In this document: one piece after another, positions 8,932 to 56,371 of the stretch
Position numbering within the stretch: position 1 is the first letter of the stretch
How the letters are laid out: the number at the start of each line of letters is the position of its first letter
From: a virus
IMG/VR virus record: IMGVR_UViG_3300027798_003516
Location: 1 to 64,000 of that record
Length of the DNA stretch: 64,000 nt
Strand: one strand, 5' to 3'
The notes under the pieces: model-generated
What the model was told of the DNA's origin: nothing
Databases searched by the model: none
Seen by the model: the letters and a program-made list of their open reading frames with translations, nothing else
Program-made: the position numbers and the translations under genes

Positions 8932-9942
8932 TTAGGCCGCTATTTTGTTGGCAAATATACCACTGGCCAAGTTCTTACCCTTGCTTTCACATTGGATATC
9001 AAAGTCATCAGCAAATGTAGCGGCCCAGTCATTCACGGCTGTATTCCAATAGAAGTCACTGTGTGCTCTAAGCTTTTGTTTCTTATAACCCTGTGCCAAT
9101 AAACTGGTCATGTCTGGCATAGTGTCTGCATCATGCCCAACCAAATAATCTTCTCTACTGACACTATAATGCATGGCAGGCCGCACACCACGCCAGCTAT
9201 CAATCACACGCCGAACTCTATCGTCAGCGGGCTGAATGTATTCTCCTGTACGGATCCAGTGATGGTGTATGTCCAGCACCAGGGCACAATGCTTGGCAAG
9301 TTCGAGACTGGAGTCAATGCCCCAGGCGTTTTCATCGTTTTCAATGGTGATACAGTTGCGGGCTTCTGGTGACAATCGTTCAAGGGCTGAAACAATGCCG
9401 GCAGGTCCTTGCTTGCCTGAGATGTGTACATTGATCTTAAAGTCCTGGAACGACTTGCCGTAGCCCATCCATCTAGCCATGTCCGCATGATATTCAAACT
9501 CCTCTATGCTTCGATCAACAATGCCAGGATTCTCGCTGGCCAGCACACAGAACTGTCCAGGGTGAAAACTCAAACGCACATCCAGACGTCTGGCAGTTTC
9601 ACCAATGGGCGCAAATATCTTTGCACAATGGTCTTGAATCTCCGGTTGTTGCCACCAGTTGATCCAATCTTTCTGGGTATAACCCTGTAGCATTTCACTG
9701 CCAAGTCGAACCATTCTGCGATTGGCTGGCAATGTGGCCACACGCTCGATTAACCGTACAGCGGCTGTGGCATTGTGATTCATAATATCCCACTGACGCT
9801 GTTCAGCTTCGGCAGGATGTTCACGCAACCAACGCATGGTGGTTGATCGGCCGTTCAGGTCACGATCCACAGCACTGACTTTCATGCCAGCCACTTCACT
9901 GGGATCGTTGATCCATTTGCAACAAAAACCTACACGACCCAT
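8932..9942 (-). CDS. uvsE: UV damage endonuclease
   Basis: RLSFHPGQF, INVH, IENDE, LDIHHH, HYS, AHSD, ESKGKN motifs. Confidence 0.9.
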   Translation of the reverse strand: MGRVGFCCKWINDPSEVAGMKVSAVDRDLNGRSTTMRWLREHPAEAEQRQWDIMNHNATAAVRLIERVATLPANRRMVRLGSEMLQGYTQKDWINWWQQPEIQDHCAKIFAPIGETARRLDVRLSFHPGQFCVLASENPGIVDRSIEEFEYHADMARWMGYGKSFQDFKINVHISGKQGPAGIVSALERLSPEARNCITIENDENAWGIDSSLELAKHCALVLDIHHHWIRTGEYIQPADDRVRRVIDSWRGVRPAMHYSVSREDYLVGHDADTMPDMTSLLAQGYKKQKLRAHSDFYWNTAVNDWAATFADDFDIQCESKGKNLASGIFANKIAA

Positions 9943-9950
9943 AATAACTC

Positions 9951-10142
9951 CTACCAATGATGTATGACGTTAGCACAAATGAACAAACAAGTGATTACAT
10001 GTATTATAACCCAAAATGTCTTCAAAGTCAAGGCAATTCTAGCTTCTTGCTTGGTAAGAATAGGTACATCGGGCCGGTCGTCATCTGTTTGGCCCATCAA
10101 ATGACCAGTAGCTCTGGCCCATACTTTTTCTAAACTGTTCAT
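9951..10142 (-). CDS. small membrane protein
   Basis: MNSLEKVWARATG... with C-terminal hydrophobic helix. Confidence 0.6.
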   Translation of the reverse strand: MNSLEKVWARATGHLMGQTDDDRPDVPILTKQEARIALTLKTFWVIIHVITCLFICANVIHHW

Positions 10143-10150
10143 ATTAATAG

Positions 10151-10366
10151 TGCCACGAAGCAGGGACGAAATGAAAATAGTCAAACAGCAAAGATCAAAT
10201 AGCTAATATCAAACATGGGTCTTTTGCTTAGGCATCACATCAAACATCAAAGTGGTTTTTGATGCCTAAGCAAGACAATTTGGAATTAGTTTTTCAGACT
10301 AAGCCAGTAGGTTTTCATCAATTAAGATGAAGTATTTTCATCTCCTACCCTGGACCAAGTGTGGCA
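10151..10366 (-). ncRNA. candidate ~215-nt structured RNA with UUUGA repeats
   Basis: Three-part basal helix joining both ends, perfect 14-bp internal stem, five TCAAA (UUUGA) copies. Confidence 0.6.
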
Positions 10367-10369
10367 GTC

Positions 10370-10945
10370 TTAGTCTAGACCGAGGTCAGTCAGCACAAGT
10401 GCTACCTGTTCGGCTACTTCAAACTCTGTGCGGACATTGATGGTGACCATCTCGTCCTTGATCTTGCGTCGACGCTTTTGAATGCGAGCCAGTTCTGCTT
10501 TGGCTTCTGCCACAGTCTCAGGCAGAGCCACATGCACTTCAATGTTGTAGTCACGACCGTATATGCTTCGCTCGTTGCCAGTGTTGGCACTACGAGCTTG
10601 AATTTCTTTTTCAAGTGCAGACAGATCAGGACGAACTTCAAGTTCAGTAATCTGACGCACACGACTTTCGGCACTGGCCAAGAATGCATCTTCTGCTAGG
10701 TAATCGGTGATGCCAACTTCGGCATTTTTCTTTGCCACAGTTGCACGAAGGTAACGGTTTGCATCCAGCAAGCGGCCAACTCGTTGGTTATTTGCAATTA
10801 CTTTTTCTAACTGTGCATTCAATAGATTGGCCACATTGTCAGCAAACAAGCTCACACTGACAGTTGTTTTTTCATTGCCCAGACGCTTGATTTCGTCAAT
10901 GATTGTTTGCTGGACCACACTGGCCTTGCGTAAATTAATTTTCAT
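10370..10945 (-). CDS. coiled-coil protein, DIP1984/DUF6847-like architecture
   Basis: Helical heptads; C-terminal LARIQKRRRKIKDEMVTINVRTEF recalls the DIP1984 C-terminus (by eye). Confidence 0.55.
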   Translation of the reverse strand: MKINLRKASVVQQTIIDEIKRLGNEKTTVSVSLFADNVANLLNAQLEKVIANNQRVGRLLDANRYLRATVAKKNAEVGITDYLAEDAFLASAESRVRQITELEVRPDLSALEKEIQARSANTGNERSIYGRDYNIEVHVALPETVAEAKAELARIQKRRRKIKDEMVTINVRTEFEVAEQVALVLTDLGLD

Positions 10946-10979
10946 ATTGTTCCTCAGAAGTTTAAATGTCTATACAGCT

Positions 10980-11007
10980 ATTATAGCAGTTTAAATTAGA
11001 ATGTCAA
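10980..11007 (-). promoter_or_regulatory. sigma70-type promoter
   Basis: TTGACA-16-TATAAT. Confidence 0.75.
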
Positions 11008-11449
11008 GTCTTTCTGTTGATTTTGGTAAAATAAATTCACCTTGGCTGGCCAGGATCAACATGCCATCAGGATCATTGGCATGAATCTCTCCATGTAAAA
11101 TAATAGTGTCATTTTGTTCAACCAGTTGTACCCGACCAAACAACCATCTTCCGATCCTGGCGGGCCGAATAAATTTATTTGACATTTGTGTAGTAACTGC
11201 CTGCTTGCCACCAGTTAGGTCCCAAATATGGGCCGCCATGCAATAGTCCATGTATGTCATCAATGCACCACCATGTGTGAGGTTTAATGCGTTTTTATGC
11301 AAGCTCAGCGTGTACCATGCAAAATTGCTTTCAACATGATCAATGCTGAATTTAAACCAAGTCTGCATGGTGTTGGCAACAAAATCTTCCCACACATGAC
11401 TTCTTAAATTGTAACCCAGTAGTCTCAACGCCGCTGGCGAATATTTCAT
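10991..11449 (-). CDS. PaaI-family hotdog thioesterase
   Basis: N..LTHGGALMTYMD and FIRPA motifs. Confidence 0.8.
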   Translation of the reverse strand: MKYSPAALRLLGYNLRSHVWEDFVANTMQTWFKFSIDHVESNFAWYTLSLHKNALNLTHGGALMTYMDYCMAAHIWDLTGGKQAVTTQMSNKFIRPARIGRWLFGRVQLVEQNDTIILHGEIHANDPDGMLILASQGEFILPKSTERLDILI

Positions 11450-15312: not shown

Positions 15313-17290
15313 AGGTCACCTCAACCTTAAATGTTCCTGTGGCAGTATTGCTTGGAATAGCTACCACTACATTGGCCCTGGCCGATGTAACTAATTCTGA
15401 TTCAACTGTGTATGTTCCAACACCAGTGGCACCATTATGGATATATCGCCAAACACTTGCGCCATCAACAGTGATGTCAAACGCTGGTGCATCAACCAAT
15501 GCGGTTGTAACTGATACACTGACATTTAGTATTCTTCTACCTTGGGTAATTGTACCAATGTTTGTAGTTGCACCAGGTAAAGTGATTTGTTGACTGATTG
15601 TTCTTGCATCAGTTTCTTTACTGCGCTGGTTTGTCACTTCTTGCCATACATTACCATCCCAGAGATACAATGCCCATTCACCGTGGCCTGCATCTATTAC
15701 CCAGGCTTGATCACCAGGTAAAGTGCTCAATGCATCTCTGGCCGCAATTGTAGGAACTGTAGTGGTTGAGTTGGCTCGTAGGCCCTGCTCAACATTTAAA
15801 CCAATTGCATAGCGACCTGTTTGTCCACTCATTACACCTGCGGTACTAAAAAATTGTCCTTGACTATCTACCAAGGTCATTGGACCACCATCATCTCGGT
15901 ACAAACGCAATGCGCTGGTTGTTGTATTTGCAGGAGTTGTTTCTGGCAATGCACTCACACCATTCGCCCCGGCAAAAGGATTGCCGTTCGCATCGTTTGC
16001 AATGTTGACAATGGTAATTGCTCCACCTGCTGTTTCTGTTATAACAATATTTCCGTTTGCATCAATGCCAGTTGAAATATCTGGAATTCTTGCTGTGTTG
16101 ATGTCCTGTATCATGTCAACACCAATTGCAATGCCCGGACCGTATTGTACAGATCCAGAAGCTGTTGTTGTAAAGTTCACGGTGATGCCGTTGATACTGG
16201 CACTAAAAGGAACATAACCAGCAATCAATCCATACGGTGTTGGATATGTGACTGTGTCACTTACAATTTGATTTGATGCACCCACTTTAATTGCTGTGAT
16301 ATTTGTATCCACAGTGGCCACATTGATCAGCGCAATGGCTTCATCTAGATTGTATGTTCCAGTGCCACTGCCTTGCAATGTCAACGGCACACGATTAATT
16401 AATACCACATCACCATCTGTTCCAGTTGGATCAATACCTGTGCCTGTTGTTATAGTTTGAATGGCGTTGGATAGTTTGATAAAAATAGGTTTATTACTGG
16501 CCGAGTCTGTGGTAAGAGCGCCTGAACCATCAGCGGCAGGATAGATAAAGTCGCCAATGATGCCAGGAAGACCTGGAGCAAAGTCAATGATACCGTTGCT
16601 GGGTCTTAGAATAAATTGATGTGGTCCAGGCCCTGGATATATCACTGTGCCAATGTACTTTTTAGCATTGTCTGCATTGGTGATTTCAAATGTGCCATTG
16701 ACAATGCTGATTGGCTGTCCAGTTTTCAACCCATGATTTTCTTTTGACAATGTGTAGTTGGTCAACGGATTCATGTATTGGAATCTACTTTGAACATCAC
16801 TAAAAAAGTTTACACTAGCCTGTCCAGGCAATGGATCCAGCATTGGCAATCCAAGCTCATTGATTTGGAAGAAAATTACAGCACCAGGACATCCAAACAG
16901 GCCAAAGCCAGTTGGGTCTCTGAATGTATTATAACGCAATCGGTCTTCTACAATTGCAGTTATAGTAGAATCTGTTTTTGCCAAGATGCTGATGATTTCA
17001 ACCACTTTGCCATCTTGGGTACCTGCAACAAAGTCACCGACTTCGATATCTTGTGCAGTGAATGTAAACGGGGTTCTAGTTAAGTTACTGCCTTGACTGG
17101 TTGCACCAACTGTAAAATCAACTTGCCATCGATAGGCTTGGGGATTAGAACCACCAGACCAATAAGGATCAGTTGGATCATTGGCATGAGGCCAAAGCGC
17201 CACTGGAACAAATGCGTCGGCTGTGGCCGCCATAACCTTGGGAGGTTTATTAATTCCAATGAAGCTGGTTTTCCATGCATTAATTGACAT
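15305..17290 (-). CDS. putative virion structural protein
   Basis: G/T-rich beta protein; start at MSINAW after AGGAG RBS. Confidence 0.65.
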   Translation of the reverse strand: MSINAWKTSFIGINKPPKVMAATADAFVPVALWPHANDPTDPYWSGGSNPQAYRWQVDFTVGATSQGSNLTRTPFTFTAQDIEVGDFVAGTQDGKVVEIISILAKTDSTITAIVEDRLRYNTFRDPTGFGLFGCPGAVIFFQINELGLPMLDPLPGQASVNFFSDVQSRFQYMNPLTNYTLSKENHGLKTGQPISIVNGTFEITNADNAKKYIGTVIYPGPGPHQFILRPSNGIIDFAPGLPGIIGDFIYPAADGSGALTTDSASNKPIFIKLSNAIQTITTGTGIDPTGTDGDVVLINRVPLTLQGSGTGTYNLDEAIALINVATVDTNITAIKVGASNQIVSDTVTYPTPYGLIAGYVPFSASINGITVNFTTTASGSVQYGPGIAIGVDMIQDINTARIPDISTGIDANGNIVITETAGGAITIVNIANDANGNPFAGANGVSALPETTPANTTTSALRLYRDDGGPMTLVDSQGQFFSTAGVMSGQTGRYAIGLNVEQGLRANSTTTVPTIAARDALSTLPGDQAWVIDAGHGEWALYLWDGNVWQEVTNQRSKETDARTISQQITLPGATTNIGTITQGRRILNVSVSVTTALVDAPAFDITVDGASVWRYIHNGATGVGTYTVESELVTSARANVVVAIPSNTATGTFKVEVTYV

Positions 17291-42741: not shown

Positions 42742-43031
42742 GCTACATTCTCCTCATCTGGTTTGACTATGATACCTTTGCAATTTGGGAAACGAATTCC
42801 AAACTGCTGATTCAATTCATCCATGTCCTTGCCTTGACAAATGAATTCTTCATTGACAGCATTGTAAGCAAAGAGCTTGTCACTGTGCGTTTCAATTTTC
42901 ATAAAAACAACTTTAGACAACAACTGCTGTACATCTTTATGCACTTCGTTGATCTCCCTTGACACTTTTCTACTCCATAGCCACACCACAAATAGCAGGG
43001 CAACACCAACTATCAAGTAGATATCTTCCAT
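42738..43031 (-). CDS. membrane-anchored hypothetical protein
   Basis: N-terminal TM helix. Confidence 0.55.
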   Translation of the reverse strand: MEDIYLIVGVALLFVVWLWSRKVSREINEVHKDVQQLLSKVVFMKIETHSDKLFAYNAVNEEFICQGKDMDELNQQFGIRFPNCKGIIVKPDEENVA

Positions 43032-48501: not shown

Positions 48502-49048
48502 GAAAATTGAGTTTACATTTAAACTTGGATTAATTAACTTGTACCACCCGGTGCCTGTGAAATTCTCACTGAATGATACAACTGTACACAATTTATCATT
48601 GGGTGCCAACAGCAATAGTATCAGTTTTATTACACAGCTAGAAGATAACCAGGCCTATTGTCTTAAATTCCAAGTTTCGGCACTGGACAAGCCTGCTAAA
48701 ATTGTTATTAACAATATTAATGTTAATTGGCCAATTGATACAGAATCGTCAAGATATCTAAGACCCGGCTGGCGAGCAGAGAGTCCAAACGAGGTTTGGA
48801 ATTATACTGATCCGGATGCAGGAAGGAGACAAGAGTTACTGGTTAAGCGAACACAAAATATTGATTTAGATTACTTTATTGGGCCGCAGGCTAGTTATAT
48901 TAAAAAGTTTGGTCGGTTTGAATCAGCCAGCGGCGAAATCACATATTTTTCTAATTTAAATAAACCATTTGCCATCACTGCTCCTGGCGCATTTAAATTA
49001 GATTTTACTTCACCTATTAGCTATTGGTTATACAGAAACTTGTTCTAA
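48491..49048 (+). CDS. hypothetical protein
   Basis: GGAG RBS; overlaps end of PP-loop gene. Confidence 0.6.
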   Translation: MQSEKIEFTFKLGLINLYHPVPVKFSLNDTTVHNLSLGANSNSISFITQLEDNQAYCLKFQVSALDKPAKIVINNINVNWPIDTESSRYLRPGWRAESPNEVWNYTDPDAGRRQELLVKRTQNIDLDYFIGPQASYIKKFGRFESASGEITYFSNLNKPFAITAPGAFKLDFTSPISYWLYRNLF

Positions 49049-56119: not shown

Positions 56120-56128
56120 GTCAACTCC

Positions 56129-56269
56129 TTAAATGGTATGCAAAGGATTGCGTCTACGCAGGTGAGCCAGGGCGGCTTCCTTTGAGTCAAAGCGACCACT
56201 GATTGGTGTCTGATGTGCGCCTCGCACAATGTACCATCCGCCCAACAAACCGTTGAATATAACTTTCAT
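56129..56269 (-). CDS. 46-aa hypothetical protein
   Basis: Manual translation MKVIFNGLLGGWYIVRG...; AAGGA RBS. Confidence 0.5.
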   Translation of the reverse strand: MKVIFNGLLGGWYIVRGAHQTPISGRFDSKEAALAHLRRRNPLHTI

Positions 56270-56371
56270 TGCAGTTCCTTAAATTTTAGTAAGAATCCAA
56301 ACCTTGACGGCAAAGATTATTGCCACCACTGCCACTGTTACAAGAATTTCCAAATCTGACATTACGACTCC

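What the first reader, a model, noticed from the sequence alone, without database searches (positions are those of the whole stretch)
10151..11007. Coiled-coil protein followed by a ~215-nt folded RNA with five UUUGA repeats: candidate protein-ncRNA system
Seen: starting 3 nt after the stop of 10370-10945, the minus-strand RNA can close on itself through UGCCAC/GUGGCA (10361-66 with 10151-56), CAGGG/CCCUG (10348-52 with 10161-65) and GAGAUGAAAAUA/UAUUUUCAUUUC (10333-44 with 10168-79). The last helix contains a G-U pair that would be an A-C mismatch on the plus strand, indicating the functional strand. Inside are a perfect 14-bp stem (UUGCUUAGGCAUCA/UGAUGCCUAAGCAA), a UUCAUC/GAUGAA hairpin and five UUUGA copies in predicted unpaired regions (near 10181, 10195, 10209, 10240, 10247). 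The unit has its own TTGACA-16-TATAAT promoter, and 200 non-coding nt is exceptional in this dense genome. Inference: the protein (DIP1984/DUF6847-like by eye) and RNA form an RNP, e.g. an RNA-antitoxin/toxin pair or a multivalent protein sponge.
Basis: partly seen in the sequence, partly recalled or inferred. Interest (0 to 1): 0.8.

Follow-up and report, generated by a model that had tools for sequence, protein, structure and literature searches.

The report
Phage UUG-heptad RNA and partner protein
Right behind a small helical-protein gene, this uncultured freshwater jumbo phage encodes a real, conserved, folded RNA of about 216 bases with a UUG every seventh base; RNA and gene stay side by side in many jumbo phages, so they are probably an undescribed protein-RNA particle whose job is untested.

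Summary
Window 10151-10366 (minus strand) is a 216-nt RNA starting 3 nt after the stop of ORF 10370-10945. It folds far better than shuffles (z -6.5). Across 13 related phage loci, 96.7% of pair cells are paired and 24 of 51 pairs show compensatory changes. It matches no Rfam family.

A divergent form of the RNA (about 260 nt) lies next to distant homologues of the protein (29-38% identity) in nearly all 60 other jumbo-phage loci. It sits upstream or downstream, always on the gene's strand, mostly inside tRNA arrays and twice near GOLLD RNA. Cultured Caulobacter phage CcrPW has it too.

The protein has a DIP1984-like (PDB 3KDQ) helical fold, is predicted to form a homodimer and carries an Arg-rich helix.

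Best reading: a dedicated, trans-acting phage protein-RNA particle whose heptads are the protein's binding sites. Binding and function are untested. The toxin-antitoxin reading, a cis-acting 3'-UTR role and a VIPR-like guide role are disfavoured. Three earlier reports of this scan describe the same module in other genomes. No paper was found.

The parts
10980..11007 (-). Sigma-70-type promoter of the unit: -35 TTGACA at 11007-11002, 16-nt spacer, TGn plus -10 TATAAT at 10985-10980. It lies inside the 3' end of the upstream 4HBT thioesterase ORF (10991-11449).
   Evidence: 12 of 12 consensus match with an extended -10 TG. Sequence read. Metatranscriptome contigs of 4 runs end at 10916-10960, just downstream (weak hint).
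10370..10945 (-). Gene for the 191-aa helical protein, a DIP1984-like fold with a C-terminal Arg-rich helix RRRRKIKDEMV. The GAGGA Shine-Dalgarno sequence is at 10957-10953.
   Evidence: ORF. 152 homologues and 336 clusters. AF2 pLDDT 83. 3kdq is the top hit. Homodimer model ipSAE 0.70 against best control 0.00. No Pfam, PHROG, NCBIfam or PADLOC hit.
10151..10366 (-). The structured RNA (216 nt; the CM match spans 10150-10367). It starts 3 nt after the TAA stop at 10372-10370.
   Evidence: Fold z -6.5. Covariation. CM R1 scores 247.7 bits. No Rfam match.
10333..10366 (-). 5' strands of the three-part closing helix P1: 10361-66, 10348-56 and 10333-44.
   Evidence: Pairs listed. Helices 1-3 are 98-100% paired, and 8 pairs change on both sides.
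10151..10179 (-). 3' strands of the closing helix P1: 10168-79, 10159-65 and 10151-56.
   Evidence: G.U wobbles (for example 10342-10170) identify the transcribed strand; 44 of 657 pair cells are G.U.
10314..10331 (-). Hairpin P2 (UUCAUC/GAUGAA). In relatives it is often ..GCUUCAUGC.., a hallmark shared with the distant subtype and with phage CcrPW.
   Evidence: Helix 4: 4 of 5 pairs are compensatory. Sequences.
10286..10302 (-). Hairpin P3: UUAGU-CUGAAAA-ACUAA, a 5-bp stem with a 7-nt loop (C)UUGAAAA/CUGAAAA. This is the best-conserved hairpin of the whole family.
   Evidence: Helix 6. The same hairpin was found beside the gene in distant loci.
10219..10276 (-). Long hairpin P4 (stem 10260-10276 with 10219-10237). 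Its 22-nt loop holds two heptads.
   Evidence: Helices 7-8: 9 of 16 pairs are compensatory. Pairs listed.
10239..10252 (-). Heptad cluster 1, in the P4 loop: CUUUGAU (10252-46) and GUUUGAU (10245-39).
   Evidence: TG...TTG is invariant across both RNA subtypes.
10180..10214 (-). Heptad cluster 2, single-stranded in the consensus: GUUUGAU, AUUAGCU, AUUUGAU, CUUUGCU, GUUUGAC. It abuts the 3' strand of P1.
   Evidence: UUG-UUG distances peak at 7/14/21/28 (54/39/22/27 observed against about 1.5 expected). This is the only such cluster in the 64-kb window.

Best explanation
The locus is a two-gene phage module: a small helical protein and a dedicated, trans-acting structured RNA that most likely assemble into a ribonucleoprotein.

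Shown. The RNA (216 nt here, about 260 nt in distant relatives) is a conserved fold. A long three-part closing helix encloses hairpins P2, P3 and P4. Between these, about 7 single-stranded UUG units sit at an exact 7-nt period: 2 in the P4 loop and 5 before the closing helix. RNA and protein gene are co-inherited in essentially every locus examined, on the same strand. The gene-RNA order is permuted and the neighbouring genes are unrelated between clades.

Inferred. The protein forms a symmetric dimer. Using its exposed Arg-rich C-terminal helix, it reads the heptads, one UUG per subunit. This resembles HutP on (UAG-N4)3 or Vipr protomers on GGY repeats. The helices act as a scaffold that sets the spacing and number of sites.

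In this phage the RNA is made as the 3' part of the protein's own mRNA, from a consensus promoter, and is presumably trimmed to the closing helix. In most relatives it is made with the tRNA array and ends in a U-tract.

The cellular role of the particle is unknown. Its home in tRNA/GOLLD islands points to RNA, tRNA or translation takeover, or to counter-defence.
For: The RNA is real. Fold z is -6.5. 96.7% of pair cells are paired and 24 of 51 pairs are compensatory, against 3-7 for slid controls, with 0 of 500 shuffles as good. The CM is strand-specific and finds one copy per locus.

The family extends to distant phages. A second CM built from 13 distant loci finds one RNA beside the gene in nearly all of L039-L098, at 45-240 bits. 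The type-A model with filters off places its five best hits inside those RNAs on the right strand, the best at E 0.004. Motifs are collinear between the subtypes.

The RNA and gene are coupled. The RNA lies 2-8 nt after the stop in the window's clade. In distant clades it lies upstream (ending 5-250 nt before the ATG, followed by a U-tract and a promoter) or downstream. An RNA-only pattern scan of 2.9 M viral contigs returned 107 stretches, of which 80 were listed and tested. Fifteen were true RNAs, and all 15 were next to the gene, including L128, where the contig ends inside the gene. Flanking genes differ: 4HBT and UvdE here, tRNA arrays and GOLLD there.

The heptads are periodic. UUG distances peak at 7/14/21/28 in both subtypes. 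The heptad logo differs between subtypes, RUUUGAY against NNUUGYN, in parallel with the protein clades. CcrPW has six heptads in perfect register.

The protein is helical with a conserved RRRRRKIKDEMV helix. The homodimer model scores ipSAE 0.70 against a best control of 0.00. The runs agree in at least 97% of contacts and partner pLDDT is at least 86. That mark was reached by 20 of 30 proteins solved as pairs of one chain and by 1 of 23 solved as single chains. The interface does not use residues 145-191.

Expression. 24 freshwater metatranscriptome runs hold the stretch. Contigs of 4 runs bridge the gene-RNA junction, and one spans exactly 10154-10960. This is a weak hint only: these are contigs, and the strand is not known.
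Against: No binding, RNA ends or phenotype has been measured.

The homology between the two RNA subtypes is not shown by R2 or nhmmer. It rests on weak collinear CM hits and shared motifs.

The most distant cultured homologue, Pseudomonas phage PA5oct gp180 (26% identity), has no detectable RNA beside it or elsewhere. Its four published ncRNAs carry no heptads.

Two loci on contigs of one Myxococcales MAG (L234, L235) also lack a hit.

Co-location in ncRNA/tRNA islands could partly reflect shared transcription rather than a physical complex.

The helical-bundle fold match (Z 10.6) is below the level at which such matches are safe for helical proteins (note), and the fold carries no known function.
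Confidence: 0.55

Rival explanations
1. The RNA is a decoy or sponge for a host factor: a host RNA-binding protein that likes U-rich/UUG single strands (for example Hfq-like), a host RNase, or a complementary host RNA. The adjacent protein would be only a helper (chaperone, processing or stabilising factor) or merely co-regulated.
For: There are multiple identical short motifs in single-stranded regions on a rigid scaffold, as in CsrB/RsmZ or CrcZ (established knowledge). The module sits among host-takeover genes and tRNA arrays. It is held in many metatranscriptomes.
Against: The strict co-inheritance with one particular phage protein, through permuted gene order and changing neighbours, is not needed for a host-directed sponge. 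The heptad consensus changes together with the protein clade, although the hosts are unknown. No host factor with a 7-nt register is known to me.
Confidence: 0.17
2. It is a cis-acting 3' UTR element of the protein's mRNA: a stabiliser against 3' exonucleases and/or an autoregulatory operator bound by its own product.
For: In the window's clade the RNA begins 2-8 nt after the stop codon and has no terminator of its own. Metatranscriptome contigs bridge gene and RNA.
Against: In most distant loci the RNA lies upstream of the gene. There it is followed by its own U-tract and then by a separate TTGACA/TATAAT promoter for the gene, or it is separated from the gene by another ORF of about 140 aa. 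The element therefore works when it is not part of the mRNA. A 216-nt five-helix fold with 24 covarying pairs is far more than a stabiliser needs.
Confidence: 0.08
3. It is a type III-like toxin-antitoxin pair, in which the repeat RNA neutralises a toxic protein.
For: A protein gene sits next to a repeat-bearing non-coding RNA under one promoter.
Against: Type III antitoxins are tandem units of about 34-36 nt placed upstream of an endoRNase toxin and cut by it (established knowledge of ToxIN). Here the repeats are 7 nt long, embedded in one structured molecule and not full-unit repeats. The protein is a helical bundle with no PADLOC match. The module is single-copy and conserved like a core gene in lytic jumbo phages. 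The PA5oct homologue carries the record's ESI-MS/MS mark, which the paper uses for proteins confirmed in the virion.
Confidence: 0.05
4. It is a VIPR-like guide RNA. Protomers would bind each conserved UUG and present the four variable bases for non-contiguous pairing to a nucleic-acid target.
For: It is formally similar to vrRNAs, which have conserved GGY alternating with NN, a Vipr filament along the RNA and a structured tail, and are phage-encoded.
Against: The 'spacer' bases are conserved, not hypervariable. The heptad tract is nearly identical between phages whose proteins are only 68% identical (window against L007). The type-A logo fixes positions -1, +3 and +4. The protein is not a RAMP/RRM fold. 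There are only 2+5 units.
Confidence: 0.04

Closest known systems
HutP with the hut terminator RNA of Bacillus subtilis (PMC2425495)
   Same: The RNA carries a conserved trinucleotide every 7 nt (UAG-N4, three units) in two clusters. An oligomeric protein reads it, one triplet per subunit. Here the unit is UUG-N4, also in two clusters.
   Different: HutP is an alpha/beta hexamer acting in cis as an antiterminator on its own operon leader. Here the protein is a helical, DIP1984-like predicted dimer. The RNA is a 216-260-nt stand-alone scaffold that works upstream or downstream of the gene. No terminator is involved. The flanking bases of the heptads are conserved.
VIPR systems (Vipr protein + vrRNA; bioRxiv 10.64898/2026.04.26.720920 and .720927)
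   Same: Both are minimal phage-encoded protein + tandem-short-repeat RNA modules. Both have a conserved triplet alternating with other bases, and a structured part attached to the repeat tract.
   Different: Vipr is a RAMP (RRM core, G-loop, thumb). The repeats are 5 nt (YNNGG), number 9-16 and have hypervariable NN acting as guide. The vrRNAs are about 100 nt. Here the protein has a helical fold, the period is 7 nt, there are about 7 units with conserved spacers, and the scaffold is large.
CsrB/RsmZ-type and CrcZ-type protein-sponge RNAs
   Same: Many copies of one short motif are displayed in loops and single strands of a structured RNA that titrates a dimeric or oligomeric RNA-binding protein (established knowledge).
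   Different: Those motifs (GGA; A-rich) have no fixed register. Their partners (CsrA, Hfq) are host global regulators encoded elsewhere. There is no sequence or fold relationship.
DIP1984 of Corynebacterium diphtheriae (PDB 3KDQ) / Pfam DUF6847
   Same: It is the best structural match of the protein: Foldseek probability 0.99 with TM 0.51/0.62, and VIA Z 10.6, rmsd 3.3 A over 143 of 152 residues. An ESM Atlas neighbour cluster carries DUF6847 in 19% of its members and is 84% viral.
   Different: No HMM hit to PF20935 or to any NCBIfam model. The phage protein is about 40 residues longer. DIP1984 has no known function and no known RNA partner.
Type III toxin-antitoxin systems (ToxIN, CptIN, TenpIN)
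   Same: A protein gene and a repeat-containing non-coding RNA form one small unit.
   Different: Those repeats are about 34-45 nt, lie upstream, and are processed by the endoRNase toxin. Those systems are bacterial or plasmid defence systems. None of these features is seen here.
GOLLD RNA (RF02032) and other stable RNAs in phage tRNA clusters
   Same: It is a large structured phage RNA of unknown function embedded in tRNA arrays. GOLLD lies 0.5-1.5 kb from the module in L070 and L049.
   Different: It is a separate molecule with no sequence or model match to GOLLD. GOLLD has no known obligate protein partner.

Membership tests
Any Rfam 15 family | Covariance-model score at or above the family's gathering threshold | tested here: not met
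   There were 0 matches in the whole window at gathering thresholds. With E up to 10 on 10050-10450, only snoRNA/miRNA noise appeared, at 21 bits or less. The distant loci gave only tRNA, GOLLD and freshwater-2, and none of these lies on this element.
tRNA / tmRNA | Cloverleaf or tRNA-like domain detected by ARAGORN | tested here: not met
   0 genes in the window.
Type III toxin-antitoxin (ToxIN-like) | Antitoxin is a tandem array of full repeat units of about 34-45 nt upstream of the toxin gene | tested here: not met
   The repeats are 7 nt, lie inside one folded molecule, and in this window are downstream of the gene.
Type III toxin-antitoxin (ToxIN-like) | Toxin is a ToxN/AbiQ-type endoRNase | tested here: inconclusive
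   No PADLOC or Pfam match. The model is an all-helical bundle. The absence of ToxN from the fold-search lists is not proof.
VIPR | Vipr protein is a RAMP (RRM core, G-loop, thumb) | tested here: inconclusive
   The AF2 model is helical apart from two 3-residue strands. No RAMP appears among the fold matches.
VIPR | vrRNA has 9-16 YNNGG 5-nt repeats with hypervariable NN | tested here: not met
   The period is 7 and the core is UUG. There are 2+5 units. The flanking bases are conserved.
HutP / hut RNA | RNA with (NAG-N4)x3 in two sites | tested here: not met
   The 7-nt register and the two clusters are the same, but the triplet is UUG, not UAG. This is an analogy only.
HutP / hut RNA | Protein of the HutP family | tested here: not met
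   No Pfam family at E up to 0.01. The fold is helical and DIP1984-like.
DUF6847 / DIP1984 family (PF20935) | Match to the Pfam HMM above 27 bits | tested here: not met
   No hit at E up to 10 in the window's genome or in hmmscan. One distant relative, P0140, reaches only E 0.12.
DUF6847 / DIP1984 family (PF20935) | Shared fold with 3KDQ | tested here: met
   VIA Z 10.6, rmsd 3.3 A, 143 of 152 residues aligned, rank 1 of 48,161 chains. Foldseek rank 1, probability 0.99. Caveat: for helical bundles, Z below about 13 can reflect a common arrangement only.
GOLLD RNA (RF02032) | Match to the GOLLD covariance model | tested here: not met
   No match in the window. In L049 and L070, GOLLD is a separate element 0.5-1.5 kb away.

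The most novel reading that the evidence does not exclude
A new class of phage ribonucleoprotein. A dimeric DIP1984-like protein decodes a 7-nt 'UUG register' displayed on a dedicated scaffold RNA. The resulting particle, encoded at the heart of jumbo-phage tRNA/GOLLD islands, acts in trans on the host's or the phage's RNA, tRNA or translation machinery, or on a host defence. This would give the large, mostly viral DIP1984/DUF6847 superfamily its first function, RNA binding.
Probability: 0.35. Interest if true: 0.85.

Novelty: categorically new. Interest (0 to 1): 0.77.

Why it matters
Structured non-coding RNAs with dedicated protein partners are rare finds in bacteria and phages. Past examples (CRISPR, tmRNA-SmpB, omega-RNA/TnpB, vrRNA/Vipr) each opened a field.

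This RNA is absent from Rfam 15, and its partner has no Pfam, PHROG or NCBIfam name. Yet the protein family counts 336 clusters at 50% identity, and the pair is present in jumbo phages from many freshwater samples. It also occurs in cultured phages of Caulobacter and Brevundimonas, where it can be tested genetically.

The strict 7-nt UUG register is an unusual and easily mutable recognition code. The module's position inside tRNA arrays next to GOLLD RNA may also give a handle on what these long-mysterious phage RNA islands do.

Tried and rejected
RNA database searches
- Rfam at gathering and at E up to 10 gave nothing. ARAGORN gave nothing.

Searches with the window's own DNA and protein
- blastn and tblastn against 50,697 phage records gave no match. 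Only distant family members hit cultured phages.

Ideas tested and dropped
- A small ORF in the heptad tract (MFDISYLIFAV*): its ATG is lost in L010 and L014, and a 7-nt period is not a reading frame.
- Mimicry of the 16S rRNA 5' end (GUUUGAUC): the distant subtype has UUGY rather than UUUGAU.
- Mimicry of GUN anticodon loops, or a TGT/colicin-E5 'UGU' decoy: the window's subtype lacks UGU in most units.
- A VIPR-like guide: the spacer bases are conserved.

Linking the two RNA subtypes
- R2 does not detect the window's RNA.
- nhmmer profiles do not cross-detect; the best hit has E 0.25.
- RNAalifold finds no consensus on the MAFFT alignment of both subtypes.
- Only R3 with filters off gave collinear weak hits.

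PA5oct
- No RNA by CM. Its four published ncRNAs carry no heptads. A whole-genome heptad scan was empty, but that heuristic also misses L070, so it is weak.

Metatranscriptomes
- All runs are kept as contigs, so there is no strand, no true ends and no expression levels. Regions without cover and depth contrasts are not used as evidence.

Tools that could not be used
- The protein-atlas search was busy once and answered later.

Literature
- Nothing for DUF6847; one irrelevant paper for DIP1984.
- Searches on GOLLD with jumbo phage, GOLLD/ROOL, CcrColossus with non-coding, and heptanucleotide repeat turned up no paper describing this RNA.
Full report
**Context.** The window is the first 64 kb of a 95,957-bp IMG/VR viral contig that CheckV rates 27% complete, so it is a fragment of a jumbo phage of roughly 350 kb. 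Relatives come from freshwater metagenomes and include contigs of 285-374 kb. On the minus strand the gene order is: S8 subtilase, acidic 93-aa ORF, 4HBT thioesterase (10991-11449), the 191-aa ORF (10370-10945), 227 non-coding nt, a 63-aa membrane-like ORF (ATG at 10142, phrog_1679), then UvdE.

**Observation.**
- The minus-strand RNA folds at -70.4 kcal/mol, against -44.1 +/- 4.1 for dinucleotide shuffles (z -6.5). The plus strand gives z -5.4.
- The promoter is a perfect TTGACA-16-TGnTATAAT.
- No intrinsic terminator follows the RNA.
- 'Exceptional' spacer length is overstated. A crude ORF tiling leaves about ten other gaps of 185 nt or more in the window.

**Is it a conserved RNA?** Searching viral contigs with the protein gave 16 loci at 59-98% identity.
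- All of them carry the same element 2-8 nt after the stop codon, while the next gene differs between loci (MNSLEKVW..., MKKLWRIW..., UvdE, or others).
- An alignment of 13 distinct copies gives a consensus of 51 pairs in 8 helices.
- 96.7% of pair cells are standard pairs, against 35-45% when the 3' partners are slid by 1-3 columns.
- 24 pairs change on both sides, against 3-7 for the slid controls, and 0 of 500 column shuffles reach the observed values.
- 44 of 657 cells are G.U, which would be A.C on the other strand. The covariance model scores 248 bits on the gene's strand and about 20 bits (the P4 hairpin only) on the other. The RNA is therefore read from the gene's strand.
- The consensus differs from the single-sequence MFE in one respect. 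It forms a 5-bp hairpin P3 with a 7-nt loop CUGAAAA/CUUGAAA (10286-10302) and leaves the repeat tract unpaired.
- No Rfam 15 family matches, even at E up to 10.

**The repeats.** The five UUUGA copies are the local form of a more general rule: UUG at an exact 7-nt period.
- In the window the P4 loop holds CUUUGAU-GUUUGAU.
- The stretch 10214-10180 reads GUUUGAU-AUUAGCU-AUUUGAU-CUUUGCU-GUUUGAC and ends at the closing helix.
- Over 19 distinct RNAs of this clade, UUG-to-UUG distances of 7, 14, 21 and 28 occur 54, 39, 22 and 27 times, against about 1.5 expected.
- This cluster is the only place in the 64-kb window that passes a simple heptad filter.

**A much wider family.** The protein family is large: 336 clusters at 50% identity, all about 185-195 aa, sharing the N-terminus M[KN]I.LRKA. 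I fetched 80 loci of relatives at 29-50% identity.
- The window-type model finds the RNA in the closer ones, including two divergent copies at 94 and 100 bits.
- In the distant ones the gene lies inside large tRNA arrays, twice near GOLLD RNA.
- Beside the gene is a roughly 260-nt element with the same order of parts:
  - a 5' motif GGGUAGAUGAGGAUAGAC, compared with GGGUAGGAGAUGAAAAUAC here;
  - a hairpin that often reads GGCUUCAUGCC, compared with UCGCUUCAUGCGA in window-clade members L008 and L011;
  - the CUUGAAAAC-loop hairpin;
  - a long hairpin whose loop holds two heptads;
  - 3-4 heptads (for example CUGUGCC-UUGUGCC-UUGUGAC), a variable hairpin, then two more heptads;
  - the 3' strands of a long closing helix.
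- Its own alignment shows 24 of 28 predicted pairs with compensatory changes.
- A model built from 13 of them (R2) finds exactly one copy, on the gene's strand, in essentially every distant locus whose flank is long enough, at 45-240 bits.
- The copy lies either upstream or downstream of the gene. Upstream, it ends 5-250 nt before the ATG and is followed by a U-run and a separate TTGACA/TATAAT promoter. Downstream, it starts 38-470 nt after the stop.
- UUG periodicity is equally strong there: 182, 83, 43 and 51 observed, against about 6 expected.

**Are the two subtypes one family?** The statistics are thin.
- R2 and nhmmer do not cross-detect, and MAFFT plus RNAalifold fails on the mixed set.
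- The window-type model run without filters over 96 kb of distant loci places its five best hits inside those RNAs, on the right strand and in collinear model coordinates, the best at E 0.004.
- MAFFT aligns the shared motifs in order, with the loop TG...TTG and two later TTG columns invariant in all 19 sequences.
- I treat them as one family with two subtypes. This is an inference from architecture, motif order and partner homology.

**Coupling of RNA and protein.**
- (i) Every RNA found through the protein is adjacent to it.
- (ii) An RNA-only pattern scan of the viral collection returned 107 stretches, of which 80 were listed and tested with the model. Fifteen were true RNAs, and all 15 lie next to the gene. 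This includes one new contig that breaks off inside the gene's last 23 codons.
- (iii) The order is permuted and the neighbours are unrelated between clades.
- (iv) Among 185,579 prokaryotic species genomes only 5 loci encode a relative. One is a tRNA-rich contig with the RNA at 90 bits, and two Arenicellales chromosomes have weak hits (E 0.006-0.01) exactly downstream of the gene.
- Exceptions are two contigs of one Myxococcales MAG, and Pseudomonas phage PA5oct gp180 (26% identity to a distant member). For PA5oct I found no RNA by model or by heptad scan, and its four published ncRNAs have no heptads.

**Cultured examples.** Caulobacter phage CcrPW gp279, and by tblastn also CcrColossus and five Brevundimonas vB_BpoS phages, encode homologues. 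In CcrPW and in vB_BpoS-Domovoi, the two inspected, the gene is followed by an unannotated gap of about 290-310 nt. The CcrPW gap folds at -127 kcal/mol. It contains a CCGCUUCAUGCGG hairpin, two loop heptads and six heptads in perfect register, and it is the best R2 hit in that 308-kb genome.

**The protein.**
- The AF2 model (pLDDT 83) is a helical bundle with two tiny strands.
- Its best solved match by both methods is 3KDQ, the DIP1984 protein of C. diphtheriae, whose function is unknown. Foldseek gives probability 0.99. VIA gives Z 10.6 over 143 of 152 residues, well ahead of the other rows in coverage.
- No HMM library names it.
- An ESM Atlas neighbour cluster is 84% viral, with DUF6847 on 19% of members.
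- BFVD shows look-alikes in CcrColossus, Vibrio phage Vp_R1 and Erwinia phage pEa_SNUABM_47.
- The most conserved segment is RRRRRKIKDEMVSINVRTEFEVPEQVALVLTELGLD.
- A two-copy model passes the tool's test. ipSAE is 0.70 in three runs against 0.00 for the best of three controls, with at least 97% contact agreement and partner pLDDT of at least 86. That mark was reached by 20 of 30 known homodimers and by 1 of 23 proteins solved as single chains. The interface uses residues 19-144, which leaves the Arg-rich helix free. This supports dimerisation but does not show it.

**Expression.** Twenty-four freshwater and lake metatranscriptome runs from 24 studies hold the stretch. All are stored as contigs, so the strand, true ends and expression levels cannot be read, and DNA carry-over is possible. 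In four runs, contigs bridge the stop codon/RNA junction. All four end at 10916-10960, just inside the predicted transcription start, and one contig spans exactly 10154-10960, from the promoter to the RNA's closing helix. I count this as a weak hint that the gene and RNA form one primary transcript here.

**Mechanism.** The step from co-inheritance to a physical RNP is an inference. It rests on three points: the permuted but unbroken linkage, the Arg-rich exposed helix on a predicted dimer, and the repeat logic.
- A fixed 7-nt register of a 3-nt core in single-stranded segments held by a rigid scaffold is what an oligomeric reader requires. HutP reads UAG-N4-UAG-N4-UAG on each face of its hexamer, and Vipr protomers each clamp a GGY of the vrRNA.
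- The heptad logo differs between the RNA subtypes (RUUUGAY here, NNUUGYN in the distant one), in step with the protein clades. That is compatible with co-evolving recognition, but equally with shared descent.

**Rivals.**
- The upstream, separately terminated arrangement in most relatives argues against a purely cis-acting 3' UTR role.
- The conserved spacer bases argue against a programmable guide. They are almost identical between phages whose proteins are 68% identical.
- Nothing resembles a type III toxin-antitoxin system beyond 'protein plus repeat RNA'.
- A host-directed sponge remains a serious rival.

**Function.** What the particle does is open. Its position in tRNA/GOLLD islands, and in this phage among many host-takeover genes, suggests RNA, tRNA or translation control, or counter-defence.

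**Earlier work.** No paper describing this RNA or protein was found. Three earlier follow-up reports of this scan, on other genomes, describe the same module and reach the same reading. I had reached the heptad rule, the HutP analogy and the tRNA-island context before opening them. I took from them the VIPR lead, which I then checked in the preprints.

Noticed in passing
L049:3071-3290, L065:3071-3290, L074:3071-3290 (after the gene); L076:~2050-2190 (before the RNA): A second conserved, strongly folding non-coding element lies beside the module in several distant loci. It reads '...ACAGACCCCGG...GCACGGUGCAUUGGAUCUACCGCAAGG...GACUUGAGAAAUC...GGACAGRGUAACC.CUCAGUCUAGGGC...GCUAGACAC'. It has no Rfam match, even at E up to 1.
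   Followed up: partly
L070:1247-1711 and L049:390-851: GOLLD RNA (RF02032, 212 and 198 bits), with an embedded tRNA, lies 0.5-1.5 kb upstream of the protein-RNA module. Both sit inside arrays of 10-20 tRNA genes.
   Followed up: partly
L059:3462-3529: A freshwater-2 RNA motif (RF02980, 54.3 bits, gathering score 49.9) lies about 100 nt after the UUG-heptad RNA of that locus.
   Followed up: no
L007:3795-3850 and L008:3800-3860: Directly after the RNA sits a terminator-like hairpin (CAGCGGUUGACA.AACCGCUG plus a U-run). Its loop and 3' side carry TTGACA...TA(C/T)AAT for the next gene (UvdE).
   Followed up: no
window 10003-10031 (minus strand): An 11/12 sigma-70 promoter (TTGACT-17-TATAAT) lies inside the 63-aa ORF and points at the UvdE gene (8932-9957).
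   Followed up: no
L099 (Pseudomonas phage PA5oct 107445-108008, gp180): The most distant cultured homologue of the protein carries the record's note 'ESI-MS/MS'. [quoted passage not shown] The protein family may therefore be packaged in virions.
   Followed up: partly
L051:2218-2352: A GC-rich folded insert of about 130 nt lies between two tRNA genes just upstream of the protein gene. It is unlike the heptad RNA.
   Followed up: no
window 48502-49027, 16461-16777, 56120-56371, 16076-16295, 42742-42958: These are other long stretches (217-526 nt) without an ORF of 50 aa or more in the crude tiling. They were not examined for RNA structure.
   Followed up: no
L237, L238 (Arenicellales bacterium nBUS_45 / nBUS_48 complete chromosomes): These are the only complete bacterial chromosomes with a homologue of the protein. 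Each has a weak R2 hit (E 0.006-0.01) exactly downstream of the gene. They may be prophages or a host-range hint.
   Followed up: partly
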